In this document: one piece after another, positions 13,181 through 19,453 of the stretch
Layout: each line of letters starts with the position of its first letter
Numbering within the stretch: the stretch's first letter is position 1
IMG/VR virus record: IMGVR_UViG_3300012956_000117
Location: 1 to 23,861 of that record
Length of the DNA stretch: 23,861 nucleotides
Source of the DNA: a virus
Reading direction: 5' to 3' (one strand)
The notes under the pieces: generated by a model
The model's input: the letters and a program-made list of their open reading frames with translations, nothing else
Told to the model about the DNA's origin: nothing
Databases searched by the model: none
Translations under genes and position numbers: made by a program

Positions 13181-16100
13181 CTAGTACACGTGCTTCTTGG
13201 AGCCTACTGGTGGCTTTCCGAACTCCGCACCGAAGGCCATACCAGGAATGGGGTGTGAGCCGTGGAGATCCGACTTCAGGCCCATTGCGGCTGCCTGCTG
13301 CAGAGTGGCGTGGAGCTCCTGGAAGTTGAGACGTCCCATCCAGTTCGTCGACTGGGCCGGGATCTCGGTGATGCCCTTGAGGATGGGCTCGTGCTCGATG
13401 GCCTTGTGCCCCTTCTGCAGGTTCCTGTTGTGCTCTTCGACAACAGAACGAGGAGCGACGTCCCCATGGACGTAGTCGCTGTGGCCTGGATCCTTCACGC
13501 GGGTGAGGTTCGTCAGAGCTCGAACGACGACTTCCACGTTACGGCGACGCACCCCTTCCCTCTCGTACAGAGCGTTGAGCTCGTTCGTGAGGTAGTGCTG
13601 GACGGCGTGGATGTCCTTCGTAGCGGCCAAGAGCTGCAGCGGATTGACGTGACCGCCTGAGAGGGAATCGCCCCTCTTCACCTCGGTGCCGACTTCCATC
13701 TTCGGATTCACCAGACGAGTGTCGACCTTGTGGGCGATGCCGTTGACGACGATGTTCACACCACCAGTCGGGTCCTTGGTGACGTGGGTGATCTTCCCAG
13801 ACGCCTGAGCCAGTGTGGCTTGGTCCTTCAACGTCTTCGGCATGCCCAGCACCTGCTTGAGGCGGGTGAACATGTCGACAGAGCCTGCGCCGGCACCCGT
13901 GGCGACACCGCCGGAGTGGAAGGCGTTCATCGAGAGCTGAGTAGCGCGCTCTCCCAGAGCCTGGCCTGCGAGGATGCCGATGTTGGTTCCGACGTCGTGA
14001 GGTACGCCGCGCTCGTTGAGACCGAAGCACTTCGCGCAGACACCATCTCCGTGCTGGCACTTCAACGGAGAACGAACCAAGACCTTCTGGTCCTTCATCT
14101 TGGCGGTGATGTCAGGCGTGAGGAGAGTGCCCTCCTTCACCGTCACGCCGTCCTTCAGCTTGTACGGAGCGGCCAAGAAGCGATCGTGGATGTCAGAGTG
14201 GCTGATGTCCATCAAGACGCCGTGACTCGTCTTGCAGTCAGGCGACGTGATGAGGGTGGACATCGTGGTGTTGAGAATCTCCTTCGAGGCAGCACCTGGG
14301 TCAGACGTACCAGAGGCCCGCTGCAGGGTTCCCTTTCGAGCTCCGTTCTGCGTGAGCCAGTACTCTCCGAGATCCAGTCCCTCAGAGAAGGAACGAGTCA
14401 CTGGGGTGGTGAGCGTCCTGTTGAGAGAGTCCTGCACCAGCATGGGGGCAGCCACCATCTGACGGAGCTGCTCCGCCTTGCCACGAGCTCCGGTGTACAC
14501 CATGCGTCCGAGCCGGTTGTCGCTGCGAGACCAACGGGCCTTGGCAGCAGCGTCCAGCTTGTCGGTGGCGTTCGAATAGATCTCCACCAGCTTCTTGTCG
14601 AGCTCCGCACCAGGCTTCATCGTCTTCGAAGCCGCGTTGGCCAGCCCAGTTGCTGTGTGGAGGATGCCGTCTCGTTCTGGGAGAACAGCGAAGTCCTTCA
14701 GGCCGAAGGAGACACCGAGCTTGTACGACCACTCGTTGCCCAGGTCCTTCAGACCATCGATGGACTTGGCGTAGGCGTTGACGTGGTTCTTCGCCAGACC
14801 GGTTGCAACCTGGTCGGCCAAGAGCCTCTTCGTCACGTCGAGCTTCGGGTTGTGGAGGATGTCCTTGTTCATTGCGAACCCGGACGGCAGGTGCTCAGCG
14901 AAGAGGAGGCGACCAGCAGTCGTCTCACCAGCAGCGCCCTTGAGCTTGAAGACATCGGTCGGGCCGATGTCGTGCTTCGAGAGAGCCTTCTTCACCTCAT
15001 CGACAGTGGAGAAGGTCTTGTTCGTGCTCTTGCCCCACTGAGTCATGTAGTGCAGTCCCAGAATCTGCTCCTGGTCCAGCACGTACATCACCTTGCCGCT
15101 CATCGGGCTGAAGAGGTTCTTGGAGGGGAACATCTTCTTCGCCTCCTCAACCGCAGCACGAGTGAGGGGGACGGTGCCGGCCATCGTGTCGCCGTCGAAG
15201 TCGGCGTTGAAGCCGCCACAGACGAGAGGGTGAATCTGAATGGCCTTGCCGCTGACAATCTTCGGGTTGAAGGCCATCACCGAGAACTTGTGCAGAGCAG
15301 GGTCACGCTTCAGCAGCATGGGCCTGTCTTCGATGACCTTCTCCAGCGCCTTCAGGGCGAGGGAGGTGTCCTTCTTGATCTCATCCTGGCCAGCGAGTGG
15401 AGAGAAGCCCCAGCGGCCAAGCTGGGCCACCACGAAGGGCTTGTACATCTCCATCGCTGCAGCCTTCGGCAGGCCGACCTCGTCGATGTGCAGGTTCGGC
15501 TCTGGAACGATGGTGGAGCGGATGGAGAGGTCCAGCTTCCTCTTGACCAGCTTGCTCTGGAAGTAGCCCTCTTTCGGCTGCCCCTCGATGCCGCCACGAC
15601 CGATGATGTCGAGGATGCCGGGCAGAGCTCGGGCACCCTTCTGGTCCTGGTCGTAGACGGGCTTGTAGTTGCCGACTGCCTGCAGCGCCTTCACTGCGTC
15701 CCAGATTTGAGTCCTGAGAGGGACCTTGTGCTCTTCGGAGTACGTCTTGTGATCGAAGTCCTTGAGCTGGTCGTTGATGAGGGAGATGTTCTTGTAGAGG
15801 CCGTTGATGGGCGCGTAGTTCACGTCCCCAGTCGGCGTCGTCGTCGCCGGGCGGAACTTCGGCGGGATGATGGGGATGTTGTGCATCATGTACGCATCGG
15901 CTGGCTTGAGGTTCTGATGCTGCAGAGCCAGGAGGTACTTGATCTTCTTGTTGGCGCGATCGAGATGCGTTCCGTGGAGGTTCGGCATCTCCGTCTTCAG
16001 CTTGGAGATCTCCTTCTCGACATCGACCTTCTTCAGAGCGTGCTCAATGGCAGCCCCGCCGGTCTTGCCCTCCAGGGTGCGCTTGCCCGCCATGATGTCG

Positions 16101-19100: not shown

Positions 19101-19453
19101 AAGAGGTGATCGATCTGGTACTCGCTCCCACCGACGATGTAGCTGTAGCGGTTGGTCAGCTTGGGGATTCGAGCGAGGGTTGTCCCCTTCTTCGTGTCGA
19201 TGACCTTGCCGGTGGCGATGTCGATGAGCTTGACGTCACCCTTCACAGGGCAGCCCCAGGTGGACTCCTTGTCCTTGGCCTCTGCCTGGCTGGAGATGTC
19301 GTCGTGAGCGATCTTGTCGTCGACCCTGAGGTTCTCGACCACCAGGCGCTGGTGGCGGCCTTCGTAGGGGAAGTACGTCTGGATTGCCTTGACGGTGTTC
19401 GCCTTCAACGTCTCGAAGGCATTCTCGGGTGTCAGGTGGTCAGCCATGTCCAT
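13181..19453 (-). CDS. rpoBC: Fused beta-beta' multisubunit-type DNA-directed RNA polymerase, one polypeptide of 2090 aa.
   Basis: Beta-like blocks include EDGIVISESAAKKLTSEH, GDKMAGRHGNKG (aa 792-803, nt 17045-17080) and LLGHDARHNIREMATYKSDQ. The beta-like end ..MLRGAGLNVQKE falls at aa 1024. Beta'-like blocks start at KPVPGGLFDP (aa 1066 onward). They continue with IPIIPPKFRP, KRKLDLSIRSTIVPEPNLHIDEVGLPK and LLKRDPALHKFSVMAFNPKIVSGKAIQIHPLVCGGFNADFDGDTM. NADFDGD is at aa 1416-1422 (nt 15188-15208). Further blocks are GARGKAEQLRQM, QNGARKG, GILAGQALGERATQLSMNAFHSGG and the Cys cluster RSPLKCQHGDGVCAKCFG. The gene stops at TAG. Confidence 0.93.
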   Translation of the reverse strand: MDMADHLTPENAFETLKANTVKAIQTYFPYEGRHQRLVVENLRVDDKIAHDDISSQAEAKDKESTWGCPVKGDVKLIDIATGKVIDTKKGTTLARIPKLTNRYSYIVGGSEYQIDHLFRLKSGAYTRVQENGDLETEYNMKKGINGRGFSVKLDRLSKQFTLKMENTHVPLYPVLKSLGVSDDQLENQWGKEIFAANKPKNEARFNNALKKFWGKTAEEGVATPEDAGTLGAHIVKTFEQTEIRPDTTKVTLGQSFSKVDGQALALGAAKVLGVSRGTHQPDDRDSLAFKEVVSVEDFIPEKIAERGAKAIKGRLRTLVDHKKSVSEILSPDLFNKPIREFFSKGGGVSERSDQTNPLQMLSANRKTTLMAKDLGGIKSTQMLTPEMQAVNASHFGFLDPMHTPESEKTGITLHLSANVRKNDKDLEAPVFDLKSGKEMYLKVADFHMMTAVLPDQVKWVNGKPVPLAKDVKVKLPNGEIAVRPYSSAQYVMPSSKGIFNYASNMVPFLPCNNGNRVSMADKQMEQAIGLKHREEPLVQTKTDSTDPSHTFEKLVGHFTTARATTDGKVTAVKDGHIVVQGKDGKSEVQLYNHFPLNDPKGMMHSTPLVAVGDAVKKGQVLADSNYTKNGTLAIGTNLKVGYVPYKGYNFEDGIVISESAAKKLTSEHLYKKNMEIDPDSDHISKAKFKAYSVVRSSSMTKDQWDNIEDDGVVKVGTRVSPGQVLVAAVGKNVSTKLTHAWGALGKRAIQPYKDKSLVWDEDHVGVVTKVVKDPSGRGVKIYVKTEEQAVIGDKMAGRHGNKGIITQILPDHEMPFTVDEKGEKQHLQVLLNPSGVPTRMNIGQVLETAASKIAAKTGKPYIVNNFAGPGHDYRQQVMDDLKKAGIPDEELVFDPKDPKKAVGSVLVGNQYLLKLVQQVEKKLTVRGGGTDVNGRGLPYDADKQPTSGGERGGQGFGQLEMYSLLGHDARHNIREMATYKSDQQDMNFWSMVQNGHEPPPPVPSFAYNKFVTMLRGAGLNVQKEGTGLRLVPVTDKETLQQAGNGRHQITDASKTLLSKNLKPVPGGLFDPHLTGGIDGDKWSYLKLSEPVPNPVFCGENVKPGPVPVLLGLKLQELDDIMAGKRTLEGKTGGAAIEHALKKVDVEKEISKLKTEMPNLHGTHLDRANKKIKYLLALQHQNLKPADAYMMHNIPIIPPKFRPATTTPTGDVNYAPINGLYKNISLINDQLKDFDHKTYSEEHKVPLRTQIWDAVKALQAVGNYKPVYDQDQKGARALPGILDIIGRGGIEGQPKEGYFQSKLVKRKLDLSIRSTIVPEPNLHIDEVGLPKAAAMEMYKPFVVAQLGRWGFSPLAGQDEIKKDTSLALKALEKVIEDRPMLLKRDPALHKFSVMAFNPKIVSGKAIQIHPLVCGGFNADFDGDTMAGTVPLTRAAVEEAKKMFPSKNLFSPMSGKVMYVLDQEQILGLHYMTQWGKSTNKTFSTVDEVKKALSKHDIGPTDVFKLKGAAGETTAGRLLFAEHLPSGFAMNKDILHNPKLDVTKRLLADQVATGLAKNHVNAYAKSIDGLKDLGNEWSYKLGVSFGLKDFAVLPERDGILHTATGLANAASKTMKPGAELDKKLVEIYSNATDKLDAAAKARWSRSDNRLGRMVYTGARGKAEQLRQMVAAPMLVQDSLNRTLTTPVTRSFSEGLDLGEYWLTQNGARKGTLQRASGTSDPGAASKEILNTTMSTLITSPDCKTSHGVLMDISHSDIHDRFLAAPYKLKDGVTVKEGTLLTPDITAKMKDQKVLVRSPLKCQHGDGVCAKCFGLNERGVPHDVGTNIGILAGQALGERATQLSMNAFHSGGVATGAGAGSVDMFTRLKQVLGMPKTLKDQATLAQASGKITHVTKDPTGGVNIVVNGIAHKVDTRLVNPKMEVGTEVKRGDSLSGGHVNPLQLLAATKDIHAVQHYLTNELNALYEREGVRRRNVEVVVRALTNLTRVKDPGHSDYVHGDVAPRSVVEEHNRNLQKGHKAIEHEPILKGITEIPAQSTNWMGRLNFQELHATLQQAAAMGLKSDLHGSHPIPGMAFGAEFGKPPVGSKKHVY

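What the first reader, a model, noticed from the sequence alone, without database searches (positions are those of the whole stretch)
13181..19453. Single-polypeptide beta-beta' fusion RNA polymerase, much smaller than cellular enzymes, encoded by a phage
**Seen in the sequence**
- One uninterrupted 2090-codon ORF carries the hallmark blocks of both large subunits of bacterial-type multisubunit RNAP, in order.
- The beta active-site block GDKMAGRHGNKG is at aa 792-803.
- The beta C-terminal clamp-like ..LRGAGLNVQKE ends at aa 1024.
- A linker of about 25-40 aa follows. The beta' N-terminal KPxxxGLF block then starts at aa 1066.
- The beta' part has the clamp-helix/lid region, the Mg-binding NADFDGD at aa 1416-1422, bridge-helix and trigger-loop-like blocks, and the second Zn cluster (CxxxxxxCxxC).
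- The first beta' Zn finger appears to be absent.
- Each module is about 1030-1060 aa, against roughly 1340 and 1400 aa in E. coli. Lineage-specific insertions, and possibly some factor-binding surfaces, are therefore missing.

**Background from memory (not checked here)**
- Fused rpoBC is known in a few bacteria, such as Helicobacter.
- Phage multisubunit RNAPs are known mainly from phiKZ/AR9-like jumbo phages, where beta and beta' are split into fragments rather than fused.
- T7-like, N4 and crAss-type phage RNAPs are unrelated or far more divergent.

**Inference**
- I recognise no alpha, omega or sigma homologue in this window.
- A compact fused beta-beta' in a phage would be a minimal two-barrel RNAP with unknown promoter recognition.
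Basis: partly seen in the sequence, partly recalled or inferred. Interest (0 to 1): 0.85.

Follow-up and report, generated by a model that had tools for sequence, protein, structure and literature searches.

The report
Fused beta-beta' phage RNA polymerase
A roughly 200-kb tailed phage encodes both large subunits of a bacterial-type RNA polymerase as one 2090-residue chain; this is one member of a very large, barely described metagenomic family whose nearest cultured relatives appear to carry the enzyme inside the virus particle.

Summary
ORF 13181-19453 (-) is one uninterrupted 2090-codon gene. It carries the beta motif GDKMAGRHGNKG, the beta' motif NADFDGD, a bridge helix, a trigger loop and the second Zn cluster. 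The first beta' Zn ribbon is deleted.

It is not an assembly chimera or a recent host capture:
- More than 150 clusters at 50% identity share the fused architecture.
- Gene order is conserved on contigs of 195-220 kb: portal, RNAP, VgrG-like spike, RNase HII, TerL.
- Identity to bacterial beta+beta' is only 24-27%, against 59% between E. coli and S. aureus.

- There is no 25-40 aa linker. Beta's last strand and beta' form a hairpin with a 2-residue turn.
- The enzyme is not minimal. AF2 models match full-length bacterial beta (TM 0.68) and beta' (TM 0.80). It is about 12% shorter than Firmicute beta+beta'.
- Phage bacterial-type RNAPs are already known (mReC clade, phages Arash and D69).

The closest isolates, Arash and D69, encode beta-beta'N plus a separate beta'C. 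In Arash these are the most abundant proteins in particle preparations.

Best reading: a catalytically competent single-chain RNAP core, expressed with structural genes and probably packaged in the virion. Its promoter-specificity factor is unknown. I rate it a new variant of a known kind.

The parts
13181..19453 (-). Single ORF, 2090 aa plus TAG stop: fused beta-beta' RNA polymerase
   Evidence: Relatives start at about residue 3, so Met3 may be the real start.
16376..19453 (-). Beta module (aa 1-1026): lobes/protrusion, fork, flap, double-psi beta-barrel, C-terminal clamp part
   Evidence: NCBIfam rpoB PRK00405 matches aa 270-1022 (1e-105). The AF2 model of aa 1-1045 (pLDDT 75.9) matches full-length bacterial beta with TM ~0.68, with the N-terminal 340 aa confidently folded.
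18209..18433 (-). Counterpart of the rifampicin-binding clusters I/II and fork loop (aa 341-415), strongly diverged
   Evidence: At the E. coli positions Q513/F514, H526 and S531 the phage has E/R, A and T. Rifampicin insensitivity is an inference from this.
17204..17266 (-). Beta flap-tip region (aa ~730-750): present in length, sequence unlike the bacterial sigma-4 docking helix
   Evidence: Alignment.
17045..17080 (-). Beta active-site block GDKMAGRHGNKG (aa 792-803)
   Evidence: G792, D793, K794, G797, R798, H799 and K802 are invariant in 46 family members.
16358..16414 (-). Beta/beta' junction (aa 1014-1032): ...LRGAGLNVQKE-GT-GLRLVP..., a seamless hairpin rather than a linker
   Evidence: One search aligns up to EGT with the last residues of E. 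coli beta (1330-1342), and the following residues with beta' ~14-30. The AF2 model has strands at aa 1019-1024 and 1027-1032 with pLDDT about 80-90. G1018, G1025 and P1032 are invariant. Arash and D69 have the same junction.
13184..16375 (-). Beta' module (aa 1027-2090)
   Evidence: TIGR02386 rpoC matches aa 1126-2065 = model positions 157-1125 of 1147 (2e-158). PDB phmmer best hit is B. subtilis beta' 6wvj_D at 2.6e-107. The AF2 model (pLDDT 77.6) matches C. difficile beta' 7l7b_D with TM 0.80 and rmsd 4.3 A.
16184..16258 (-). Site of the deleted beta' N-terminal Zn ribbon (aa 1066-1090): GLFDPHLTGGIDGDKWSYLKLSEPV
   Evidence: E. coli beta' 66-97 and S. aureus 1239-1270 (positions in the concatenated beta+beta' sequence used) have no counterpart. 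The deletion is shared by all family members examined and by Arash and D69.
15668..15817 (-). Lid / clamp helices / rudder region (aa ~1213-1262)
   Evidence: Alignment. The coiled-coil pattern is kept. The residues that bind sigma region 2 in E. coli are not conserved.
15188..15208 (-). Mg-binding NADFDGD (aa 1416-1422), followed by Thr
   Evidence: Invariant in 46 members. The commonest large-insertion (likely intein) site in relatives lies directly after it.
14261..14371 (-). Bridge helix (aa ~1695-1731): GARKG core kept, the rest diverged
14027..14236 (-). Second Zn cluster: C1740, C1799, C1806, C1809
   Evidence: All four Cys are invariant in the family.
13829..13987 (-). Trigger loop (aa ~1823-1875) without an SI3 insert; Met and His of the M-x-x-F-H motif kept
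12092..13168 (-). Gene immediately downstream (358 aa): VgrG/gp5-like central tail spike
   Evidence: Family profile against PDB: T6SS VgrG 8gra_I at 2.4e-4, plus several T4 gp5 beta-helix chains. PHROG baseplate hit 1.7e-5. In 11 of the 13 relatives compared it lies 0-12 nt after, or overlaps, the RNAP stop codon.
9781..12081 (-). Conserved syntenic 766-aa protein of unknown function
   Evidence: Present after the spike gene in all 16 related loci. No Pfam, PHROG, NCBIfam or PDB-sequence match.
22329..23861 (-). Portal gene (runs off the window end), interrupted in frame by TAG-TAG at 22677-22682
   Evidence: 33% identity to the Arash portal gp204 and to the D69 homologue. It is one continuous ORF of 668-720 aa in 15 relatives.
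4577..6421 (-). Terminase large subunit (phage context)
   Evidence: phrog_675 at 3.6e-61 and Pfam GpA_ATPase at 1.8e-10. 29% identity to Arash TerL gp1.

Best explanation
The ORF encodes a catalytically competent, bacterial-type RNA polymerase core made as one chain. A complete beta (aa 1-1026) is joined to a complete beta' that lacks only the N-terminal Zn ribbon. The join is a two-residue hairpin turn at the point where the beta C-terminus and the beta' N-terminus already pair in cellular enzymes.

It belongs to a very large, old and diverse family carried by tailed phages of about 200 kb. This family is sister to the Arash/D69 enzymes, which are encoded as beta-beta'N plus a separate beta'C.

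Shown:
- identity, architecture and conservation of the catalytic residues;
- phage context;
- family size;
- distance from cellular RNAPs.

Inferred:
- The gene lies between the portal and the tail spike, and is tightly coupled to the spike gene. It is therefore made late with virion proteins.
- By analogy with Arash, it is packaged into the particle and delivered with the DNA. It would then transcribe early phage genes independently of the host RNAP.
- The rifampicin pocket is diverged, so it should be rifampicin-insensitive.
- Because beta and beta' are tethered, it probably needs no alpha-dimer assembly platform.
- Promoter recognition must come from a separate factor not encoded in this window. 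Arash-type relatives have a sigma-70-like protein. None was found for the fused clade.
For: Architecture and catalysis:
- ordered Rpb2/Rpb1 domains; GDK..GRH..K, NADFDGD and four Zn2 cysteines invariant in 46 members.
- AF2 models match full-length bacterial beta and beta', with TM 0.68 and 0.80.

Not a chimera:
- the 120 best clusters are mostly 2079-2130 aa (longer where inteins are inserted) at 47-98% identity.
- all 150 best 50%-identity representatives span the junction, with E <= 3e-196.
- identical flanking genes on independent contigs.
- uniform GC content.

Phage context: searches identify TerL, the portal, a VgrG-like spike and RNase HII.

Distinct lineage:
- 24-27% identity to bacteria against 59-60% between E. 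coli or Acinetobacter and S. aureus. The fused clade is sister to Arash/D69 in a neighbour-joining tree.
- scores are far below the curated cut-offs (rpoC 529 vs 963, rpoB 355 vs 896, Helicobacter-type RpoBC 548 vs 5372).

Virion inference:
- Arash Gp206 has the highest spectral count of all proteins in particle preparations (3516), and Gp216 is also high (PMC10585845).
- In Arash the RNAP genes lie inside the structural module next to the portal, as they do here.
- The RNAP stop codon lies 0-12 nt from, or overlaps, the spike gene start in 11 of the 13 relatives compared.
Against: - The virion association is transferred from a homologue only about 32% identical.
- The Arash particle proteome lists 116 proteins, including ribonucleotide reductases. 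No density-gradient purification term (CsCl, cesium) was found in the text, and its authors themselves allow for carry-over of abundant proteins.
- No sigma-like, alpha-like or omega-like partner was found in the window.
- Among 330 relatives of Arash sigma-like Gp10, none of the 120 listed lies on a contig whose length matches a fused-RNAP contig. How promoters are recognised is therefore unknown.
- Independence from alpha is not tested.
- The bridge helix, flap tip and clamp helices are strongly diverged, so the enzyme's kinetic properties cannot be predicted.
Confidence: 0.75

Rival explanations
1. Same enzyme, but not a virion component. It is synthesised after infection and transcribes only middle or late phage genes, like the phiKZ or AR9 non-virion RNAP. 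Early genes would be read by the host RNAP.
For: The Arash particle preparation contained many non-structural enzymes, so the RNAP signal could be carry-over. No term for density-gradient purification (CsCl, cesium) was found in the text. The only sigma-70-like promoter match in the window precedes the phage tRNA, so host RNAP may read at least something. A protein of about 232 kDa would have to be packaged and ejected.
Against: Only one RNAP set is detectable in Arash (annotation). If early genes are transcribed independently of the host, that enzyme must arrive with the DNA. The gene sits between the portal and the spike and is translationally coupled to the spike gene. That is an odd place for an enzyme needed before late genes. 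Gp206 has the highest spectral count of all Arash proteins, above the major capsid protein.
Confidence: 0.3
2. Recently captured host rpoB-rpoC (or a Helicobacter/Wolbachia-type rpoBC), or an assembly chimera joining bacterial and phage DNA.
For: Best PDB and NCBIfam matches are bacterial beta and beta'. Fused rpoBC exists in some bacteria (NCBIfam models PRK09603 and PRK14844).
Against: Identity to bacterial enzymes is 24-27%, while bacteria from different phyla share about 59%. Scores are 2-10 times below the equivalog cut-offs. The Zn-ribbon deletion and the junction are shared with Arash and D69. More than 150 diverged representatives have the same architecture. The same neighbours occur on many independent assemblies. 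There is no GC discontinuity. A scan of 185,579 species genomes for close relatives found none.
Confidence: 0.02
3. A catalytically dead RNAP-derived protein that serves as a structural or DNA-binding virion component.
For: Unusual location among structural genes. Diverged bridge helix, flap tip and rifampicin pocket.
Against: All catalytic and metal-binding residues of both barrels are invariant across a family whose members are only 35-50% identical overall. The trigger-loop Met and His are kept. Large insertions, likely inteins, cluster at the catalytic motifs, which is typical of essential active enzymes.
Confidence: 0.03

Closest known systems
RNAP of Salmonella phage Arash (Gp206 + Gp216) and Vibrio phages D69/D181/D148
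   Same: Closest cultured relatives: 31-33% identity over about 90% of the length. Same seamless beta/beta' junction, same Zn-ribbon deletion, same C-terminal ...Y. Same portal-then-RNAP gene order and related TerL and portal. Sister clade in the distance tree.
   Different: In these phages the gene is split about 50-75 residues after the Mg motif, into beta-beta'N (~1525 aa) and beta'C (~606 aa). The two pieces are separated by 0.6-4.8 kb that can hold a homing endonuclease. The Mg motif reads AADYDGD. A sigma-70-like protein (Gp10; Pfam Sigma70_r3 at 9e-9) accompanies it. No such protein was found for the fused clade.
mReC: multisubunit-RNAP-encoding Caudovirales (Weinheimer & Aylward 2020, PMC7481178)
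   Same: Metagenomic tailed phages, some over 200 kb, with bacterial-like beta and beta' that keep NADFDGD and branch outside cellular clades.
   Different: Every mReC entry I could read lists beta and beta' as two different proteins, about 960-1563 and 899-1370 aa. No ~2090-aa protein appears in their tables. The paper mentions fusion only for crAssphage. Their contig list does not include the IMG/VR relatives found here. Cobetia phage Carin-5, with beta 1083 aa and beta' 927 aa as adjacent genes, resembles that type and is only 24% identical to the window protein.
Cellular fused RpoBC of Helicobacter/Wolbachia type (NCBIfam PRK09603, PRK14844)
   Same: Beta then beta' in one polypeptide, joined at the natural C-terminus/N-terminus contact.
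   Different: Those proteins are about 2840-2890 aa and are ordinary members of their bacterial clades. The window protein scores 548 and 472 bits against cut-offs of 5372 and 4632. That those enzymes still use alpha, omega and sigma is from my own knowledge, not tested here.
phiKZ / AR9 jumbo-phage multisubunit RNAPs
   Same: Phage-encoded two-barrel RNAPs without alpha or omega. One set is virion-packaged (reviews PMC7598289 and PMC7824862).
   Different: There beta and beta' are split into 4-5 polypeptides and are very diverged. None appears among the 50 best structural matches of either module. In the PHROG scan, families annotated as phage RNA polymerase beta subunit (not traced here to particular phages) match only locally, 1e-9 to 1e-28. 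This protein shows the opposite trend: complete fusion and a near-complete bacterial fold.
Single-chain two-barrel phage RNAPs: crAss-like gp66, Thermus P23-45 tape-measure-fused RNAP, YonO
   Same: One polypeptide carries both barrels. The crAss and P23-45 enzymes are virion-delivered (10.1101/2022.12.01.518664, listed; crAss from my own knowledge).
   Different: Those enzymes are related to the QDE-1/RdRP branch or are so diverged that COG0085/0086 models do not detect them. This protein is recognised end to end by rpoB and rpoC models.
Coliphage N4 virion RNAP (functional analogue only)
   Same: A giant single-chain RNAP that is packaged and injected to transcribe early genes. This is the mode of action proposed here.
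   Different: A T7-like single-subunit fold, unrelated in sequence and structure (from my own knowledge).

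Membership tests
Two-barrel multisubunit-type RNAP (beta/beta' superfamily) | Beta-type double-psi beta-barrel with the conserved Lys pair (GDK..GRHGNKG) | tested here: met
   aa 792-803. Pfam Rpb2_6 at 4e-59. Invariant in 46 members.
Two-barrel multisubunit-type RNAP (beta/beta' superfamily) | Beta'-type barrel with the NADFDGD Mg-binding triad | tested here: met
   aa 1416-1422. Pfam Rpb1_2 at 3e-27. Invariant.
Two-barrel multisubunit-type RNAP (beta/beta' superfamily) | Bridge helix, trigger loop, clamp helices, lid/rudder and flap in the canonical order and fold | tested here: met
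   Alignment to E. coli and S. aureus. AF2 models superpose on full-length bacterial beta (TM 0.68) and beta' (TM 0.80). The sequences of these elements are strongly diverged.
Bacterial RNAP core (alpha2-beta-beta'-omega) | Beta' N-terminal Zn ribbon (Cys70/72/85/88 in E. coli) | tested here: not met
   A 32-residue deletion, with no Cys in the region.
Bacterial RNAP core (alpha2-beta-beta'-omega) | Second Zn site (Cys814/888/895/898 in E. coli) | tested here: met
   C1740, C1799, C1806 and C1809, all invariant.
Bacterial RNAP core (alpha2-beta-beta'-omega) | Alpha dimer and omega as assembly partners; sigma for initiation | tested here: inconclusive
   No RpoA, RpoZ or sigma-70 domain in any tested window ORF. 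The window covers only about 12% of a ~200 kb genome, and host subunits cannot be excluded.
Cellular RpoB / RpoC equivalogs (NCBIfam) | Score at or above the curated cut-off of rpoB (PRK00405, TIGR02013) and rpoC (TIGR02386) | tested here: not met
   355 vs 896, 310 vs 801, and 529 vs 963.5 bits.
Cellular fused RpoBC (Helicobacter/Wolbachia type) | Beta and beta' in one chain AND score above the PRK09603/PRK14844 cut-offs | tested here: not met
   The fusion is present, but the scores are 548 vs 5372 and 472 vs 4632. Identity to bacterial enzymes is 24-27%.
mReC phage RNAP clade (PMC7481178) | Beta and beta' encoded as separate genes of at least 800 aa on a Caudovirales contig | tested here: not met
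   One gene here. All mReC rows read list two proteins.
mReC phage RNAP clade (PMC7481178) | Branches with the published mReC sequences, outside cellular clades | not testable with these tools
   The mReC sequences were not retrievable. Only a neighbour-joining tree with three bacteria, Carin-5, Arash and D69 could be made. It shows separation from bacteria and only 24% identity to the Carin-5 type.
Arash/D69-type phage RNAP | Seamless beta-beta' junction, Zn-ribbon deletion, portal-adjacent gene | tested here: met
Arash/D69-type phage RNAP | Beta' split into two genes after the catalytic barrel | tested here: not met
   The ORF here is continuous, as it is in the relatives.
Virion-packaged RNAP (functional class) | Protein present in purified particles and active on entry | not testable with these tools
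   Only indirect evidence: the Arash proteome, the gene's position, and its coupling to the spike gene.

The most novel reading that the evidence does not exclude
A whole, previously undescribed major lineage of ~200-kb phages carries a self-sufficient single-chain bacterial-type RNAP. This 232-kDa enzyme would need neither alpha nor omega. It would be packaged next to the portal or tail machinery and injected with the genome. It would initiate at phage promoters through a factor unrelated to sigma-70, or intrinsically. That would make it the simplest natural form of a near-complete bacterial RNAP fold, and an N4-like injection strategy evolved with a multisubunit-type enzyme.
Probability: 0.3. 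Interest if true: 0.85.

Novelty: new variant of a known kind. Interest (0 to 1): 0.6.

Why it matters
- A single gene that gives a complete bacterial-type RNAP core would be a convenient minimal system. It could be used to study assembly-independent transcription, the role of the beta' Zn ribbon, and sigma-independent or novel-factor initiation.
- If the enzyme is virion-delivered, a ~232-kDa multisubunit-type enzyme would have to pass through a contractile tail, as the unrelated N4 enzyme does.
- The family is very large: at least 150 clusters at 50% identity, on genomes of 195-220 kb from many metagenomes. Yet it is absent from the published phage-RNAP surveys I could read. It also supplies a long, well-conserved phylogenetic marker for a major phage group.
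- The three gene layouts are fully fused, beta-beta'N + beta'C, and separate beta and beta'. The first two are sister groups; separate genes occur in more distant phage RNAPs. Together they give a natural experiment on how RNAP subunit boundaries evolve.
- The density of large insertions, likely inteins, at the catalytic motifs is of interest in its own right.

Tried and rejected
1. Programmed read-through joining the RNAP to the spike protein. In the window the RNAP's TAG stop is in frame with the spike gene 4 codons later, and an amber-suppressor tRNA is present. Rejected because relatives use TAA, TAG or TGA and the frame varies, and because the C-terminal ...Y is conserved even in Arash and D69.

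2. Search for a sigma partner.
- Window ORFs against Pfam, PHROGs and NCBIfam: negative.
- Arash Gp10 against the window HTH protein: no similarity.
- Gp10 and a profile of its relatives against 5.8 billion proteins: 330 hits. None of the 120 listed lies on a contig whose length matches a fused-RNAP contig.
- The 'sigma factor' annotated in Carin-5 has no Pfam support.

3. Scan of genome contigs for close relatives in bacterial or archaeal genomes, for host clues or prophages: nothing found.

4. Near-identical DNA in GenBank phages: none.

5. Matching the IMG/VR contig identifiers to the mReC supplement: no overlap found. The supplement was truncated when stored.

6. Promoter search. Only one sigma-70-like match, no more than expected by chance, and no obvious shared motif in the intergenic regions.

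7. Function of the conserved 766-aa and 285-aa neighbours. No match in Pfam, PHROGs, NCBIfam or PDB sequences.

8. Literature searches for an explicit description of a fully fused phage beta-beta': none found. The library is limited to open-access papers, so absence is not proven.

Full report
**1. The observation**

The window has one ORF at 13181..19453 on the minus strand, 2090 codons, starting ATG and ending TAG. All quoted motifs sit at the stated residues: GDKMAGRHGNKG 792-803, LRGAGLNVQKE 1014-1024, KPVPGGLF 1062-1069, NADFDGD 1416-1422.

The protein has eight cysteines. Four of them (1740, 1799, 1806, 1809) form the second Zn cluster.

Pfam finds the RNAP domains in the cellular order: Rpb2_3, Rpb2_6 (4e-59), Rpb2_7, then Rpb1_1 to Rpb1_5. 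NCBIfam rpoB covers aa 270-1022, and rpoC covers aa 1126-2065, which is almost the whole model. GC content is even, about 0.60, across the gene and its flanks.

**2. Anatomy relative to cellular enzymes**

I aligned the protein with E. coli and S. aureus beta+beta', eight family members, Arash and D69.

The segments missing relative to E. coli are:
- betaSI1 (beta 224-340);
- betaSI2 (beta 933-1034);
- beta 1125-1178;
- beta'SI3 (beta' 949-1134);
- the beta' Zn ribbon (beta' 66-97);
- a few short loops.

Relative to S. aureus, the larger differences are about 90 residues of the beta lobe, the Zn ribbon, the subunit termini at the junction, and several short loops. That gives 2090 aa against 2390 aa.

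The junction has no linker. ...LRGAGLNVQKEGT aligns with the last residues of E. coli beta. The next residues, GLRLVPVTDKETL..., align with beta' ~14-30.

Two AlphaFold2 models were built on 46-sequence family alignments:
- aa 1-1045 has pLDDT 75.9. It matches full-length bacterial beta with TM ~0.68; cyanobacterial, Thermus and mycobacterial chains rank first.
- aa 950-2090 has pLDDT 77.6. It matches full-length beta' with TM up to 0.80 and rmsd 4.3 A to C. difficile 7l7b_D.

In the second model the junction is a confident beta-hairpin, with strands at aa 1019-1024 and 1027-1032.

Within 46 family members, the beta Lys motif, NADFDGD, the four Zn2 cysteines and the hairpin glycines are invariant.

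Several elements are present but diverged: the rifampicin pocket, flap tip, clamp helices and bridge helix. At E. coli H526 the phage has Ala, at S531 Thr, and at Q513/F514 Glu/Arg. I infer rifampicin insensitivity from this. It also leaves open which initiation factor docks.

**3. The context is a phage**

- TerL is at 4577..6421 (phrog_675, 3.6e-61), and RNase HII at 6724..7356.
- The ORF at the window end is a portal, 33% identical to the Arash portal.
- The gene directly after the RNAP is a VgrG/gp5-like central spike. A family profile hits PDB VgrG at 2.4e-4, plus several T4 gp5 chains.
- Sixteen IMG/VR loci, one JGI contig and one Logan contig share the order portal, small variable genes, RNAP, spike, 766-aa protein, 285-aa protein, RNase HII, TerL.
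- Many of these contigs are 195-220 kb.

**4. How common it is**

- The word-indexed search found 587 proteins at E <= 1e-10. The 120 best are 47-98% identical. Most are 2079-2130 aa, and the rest are longer because of inteins.
- I also searched a junction-spanning query (aa 560-1700) exhaustively against 1.84 billion 50%-identity representatives. All 150 best hits have E <= 3e-196 and 38-59% identity, and all are matched across the beta/beta' boundary. Uninterrupted full-length ones are about 1990-2130 aa, and insertion-bearing ones reach 4739 aa.

The fusion is therefore the ancestral state of a very large family. It is not an artefact.

**5. Relationship to other RNAPs**

*GenBank phages.* tblastn finds no close relative. 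The best hits are Vibrio phages D69/D181/D148 and Salmonella phage Arash, at 31-33% identity. In those phages one gene encodes beta plus the beta' N-terminal part through the catalytic barrel (~1525 aa), and a second gene encodes beta'C (~606 aa). They share the seamless junction, the Zn-ribbon deletion and the C-terminal Tyr. The beta/beta' fusion therefore predates the split between the two groups.

*Distance analysis.* A neighbour-joining analysis over 1886 columns makes Arash/D69 sister to the fused family:
- Both are 24-27% identical to E. coli, Acinetobacter and S. aureus, which are 59-81% identical to one another.
- Family members are as little as 35% identical to each other.

With the NCBIfam scores far below the equivalog cut-offs, this argues against recent host capture. 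The taxon sample is small and the tree is only a distance tree.

*The mReC clade.* In the published mReC clade (PMC7481178), the entries I could read have separate beta and beta' proteins. No ~2090-aa entries appear in its tables, and the paper discusses fusion only for crAssphage. Reviews of jumbo-phage RNAPs likewise do not mention a fully fused bacterial-type enzyme.

**6. How it probably works**

*Shown.* This is a complete two-barrel catalytic core in one chain, under strong purifying selection at the catalytic sites.

*Inferred.*
- In Arash, Gp206 has the highest spectral count of any protein in particle preparations, and Gp216 is also high. A sigma-70-like protein (Gp10) and an SNF2 helicase encoded next to beta'C were detected too.
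- In Arash the RNAP genes lie in the structural module beside the portal.
- In the window the RNAP gene lies between the portal and the spike.
- In 11 of the 13 relatives compared, the spike start codon lies 0-12 nt after, or overlaps, the RNAP stop codon.

I therefore think the enzyme is made late, packaged, and injected to start the next infection.

*Caveats.*
- The Arash preparation contained 116 proteins, including metabolic enzymes.
- I found no term for density-gradient purification in the text.
- The homology is distant.
- No sigma-, alpha- or omega-like partner is in the window.
- The Gp10-like sigma family is found on contigs of up to about 180 kb. None of the 120 listed hits lies on a contig whose length matches a fused-RNAP contig.

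Promoter recognition in the fused clade is therefore open.

**7. Verdict**

The finding is real and the core interpretation is right. The enzyme is neither minimal nor unprecedented in kind. It is a new architectural variant (full fusion) and a large unreported clade within the known class of phage-encoded bacterial-type RNAPs.

**8. Side observations**

*Portal gene and suppressor tRNA.*
- The portal gene is interrupted in frame by tandem TAG-TAG at 22677-22682.
- The closest relative reads CAG-CAG there, and 15 relatives have one continuous ORF.
- Immediately downstream lies a tRNA with anticodon CUA at 22215-22290. ARAGORN predicts it, Rfam scores it at 37.6 bits, and it folds into a clean cloverleaf.
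- That tRNA is absent from the closest relative.
- It is preceded by the only sigma-70-like promoter match in the region scanned, 3000-22900.

*Large insertions.* About a third of the family proteins retrieved carry large insertions. These concentrate directly after NADFDGD, at HTPES|EK, in and after the GDK motif, and in the trigger loop. Pfam intein and homing-endonuclease domains are recorded for many of them.

Noticed in passing
window 22215-22290 (-) and 22677-22682 (-): An amber-suppressor-type tRNA (anticodon CUA; Rfam tRNA 37.6 bits; clean cloverleaf; unusual A33) lies right after the portal gene. The portal gene carries an in-frame tandem TAG-TAG. The 98%-identical relative L027 reads CAG-CAG there and lacks the tRNA, and 15 other relatives have one continuous portal ORF. 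This looks like suppressor-dependent (TAG read as Gln?) synthesis of the full-length portal. The RNAP ORF has no internal TAG.
   Followed up: yes
window 22298-22325 (-): The only sigma-70-like promoter match in the region scanned, window 3000-22900 (TTGACT-16-TAGGAT), sits just upstream of the suppressor tRNA. The box is conserved in relative L027, which has no tRNA after it.
   Followed up: partly
Family proteins P0013-P0270 (relatives); sites mapped to window aa ~405, 790-845, 1420-1430 and 1845-1865: 98 of the 270 proteins retrieved up to that point (nearly all RNAP family members) exceed 2300 aa, up to 4739 aa, because of large insertions. Pfam records intein, LAGLIDADG or Hom_end domains for many of them. 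The hot spots are the catalytic motifs, with 53 cases directly after NADFDGD|T.
   Followed up: partly
L001 (Vibrio phage D69) 5923-12974; L002 (Arash) 7962-19130: In the cultured relatives the RNAP gene is split about 50-75 residues after the Mg motif. This is close to where cyanobacterial rpoC1/rpoC2 split (NCBIfam rpoC1_cyan ends at about window aa 1504, and rpoC2_cyan starts at about 1541). D181 and D148 have a homing endonuclease annotated under the tblastn match that spans the two RNAP pieces, and Arash has nine genes between them.
   Followed up: partly
L008 16270-17243: One relative has a ~970-nt insertion near the 3' end of the RNAP gene. The last ~20 codons (GMAYGAEFGKPPADSKKHVY*) are repeated after the insert. 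This suggests a mobile element that carries a replacement C-terminus.
   Followed up: no
window 9781-12081 (-) and 8920-9777 (-): Two strongly conserved proteins (766 aa and 285 aa) always follow the RNAP-spike pair in relatives. They have no detectable homologue in Pfam, PHROGs, NCBIfam or PDB sequences. They are candidates for virion, ejection or RNAP-associated functions.
   Followed up: partly
window 19447-19453: Relatives align from residue 3 onward and some are 2088 aa, so the true start may be the second ATG (Met3).
   Followed up: no
L020 11892-12596 (Arash gp10) and relatives P0271-P0395: A broad family of ~230-295-aa phage sigma-70-like proteins (Pfam Sigma70_r3), 330 hits in all, lies on contigs of up to about 180 kb. 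None of the 120 listed hits is on a contig whose length matches a contig carrying the fully fused RNAP.
   Followed up: partly
window 3209-3910 (+): A 233-aa protein with an N-terminal MerR/excisionase-type HTH (weak Pfam and PHROG hits) next to TerL. It has no similarity to Arash sigma-like Gp10.
   Followed up: partly
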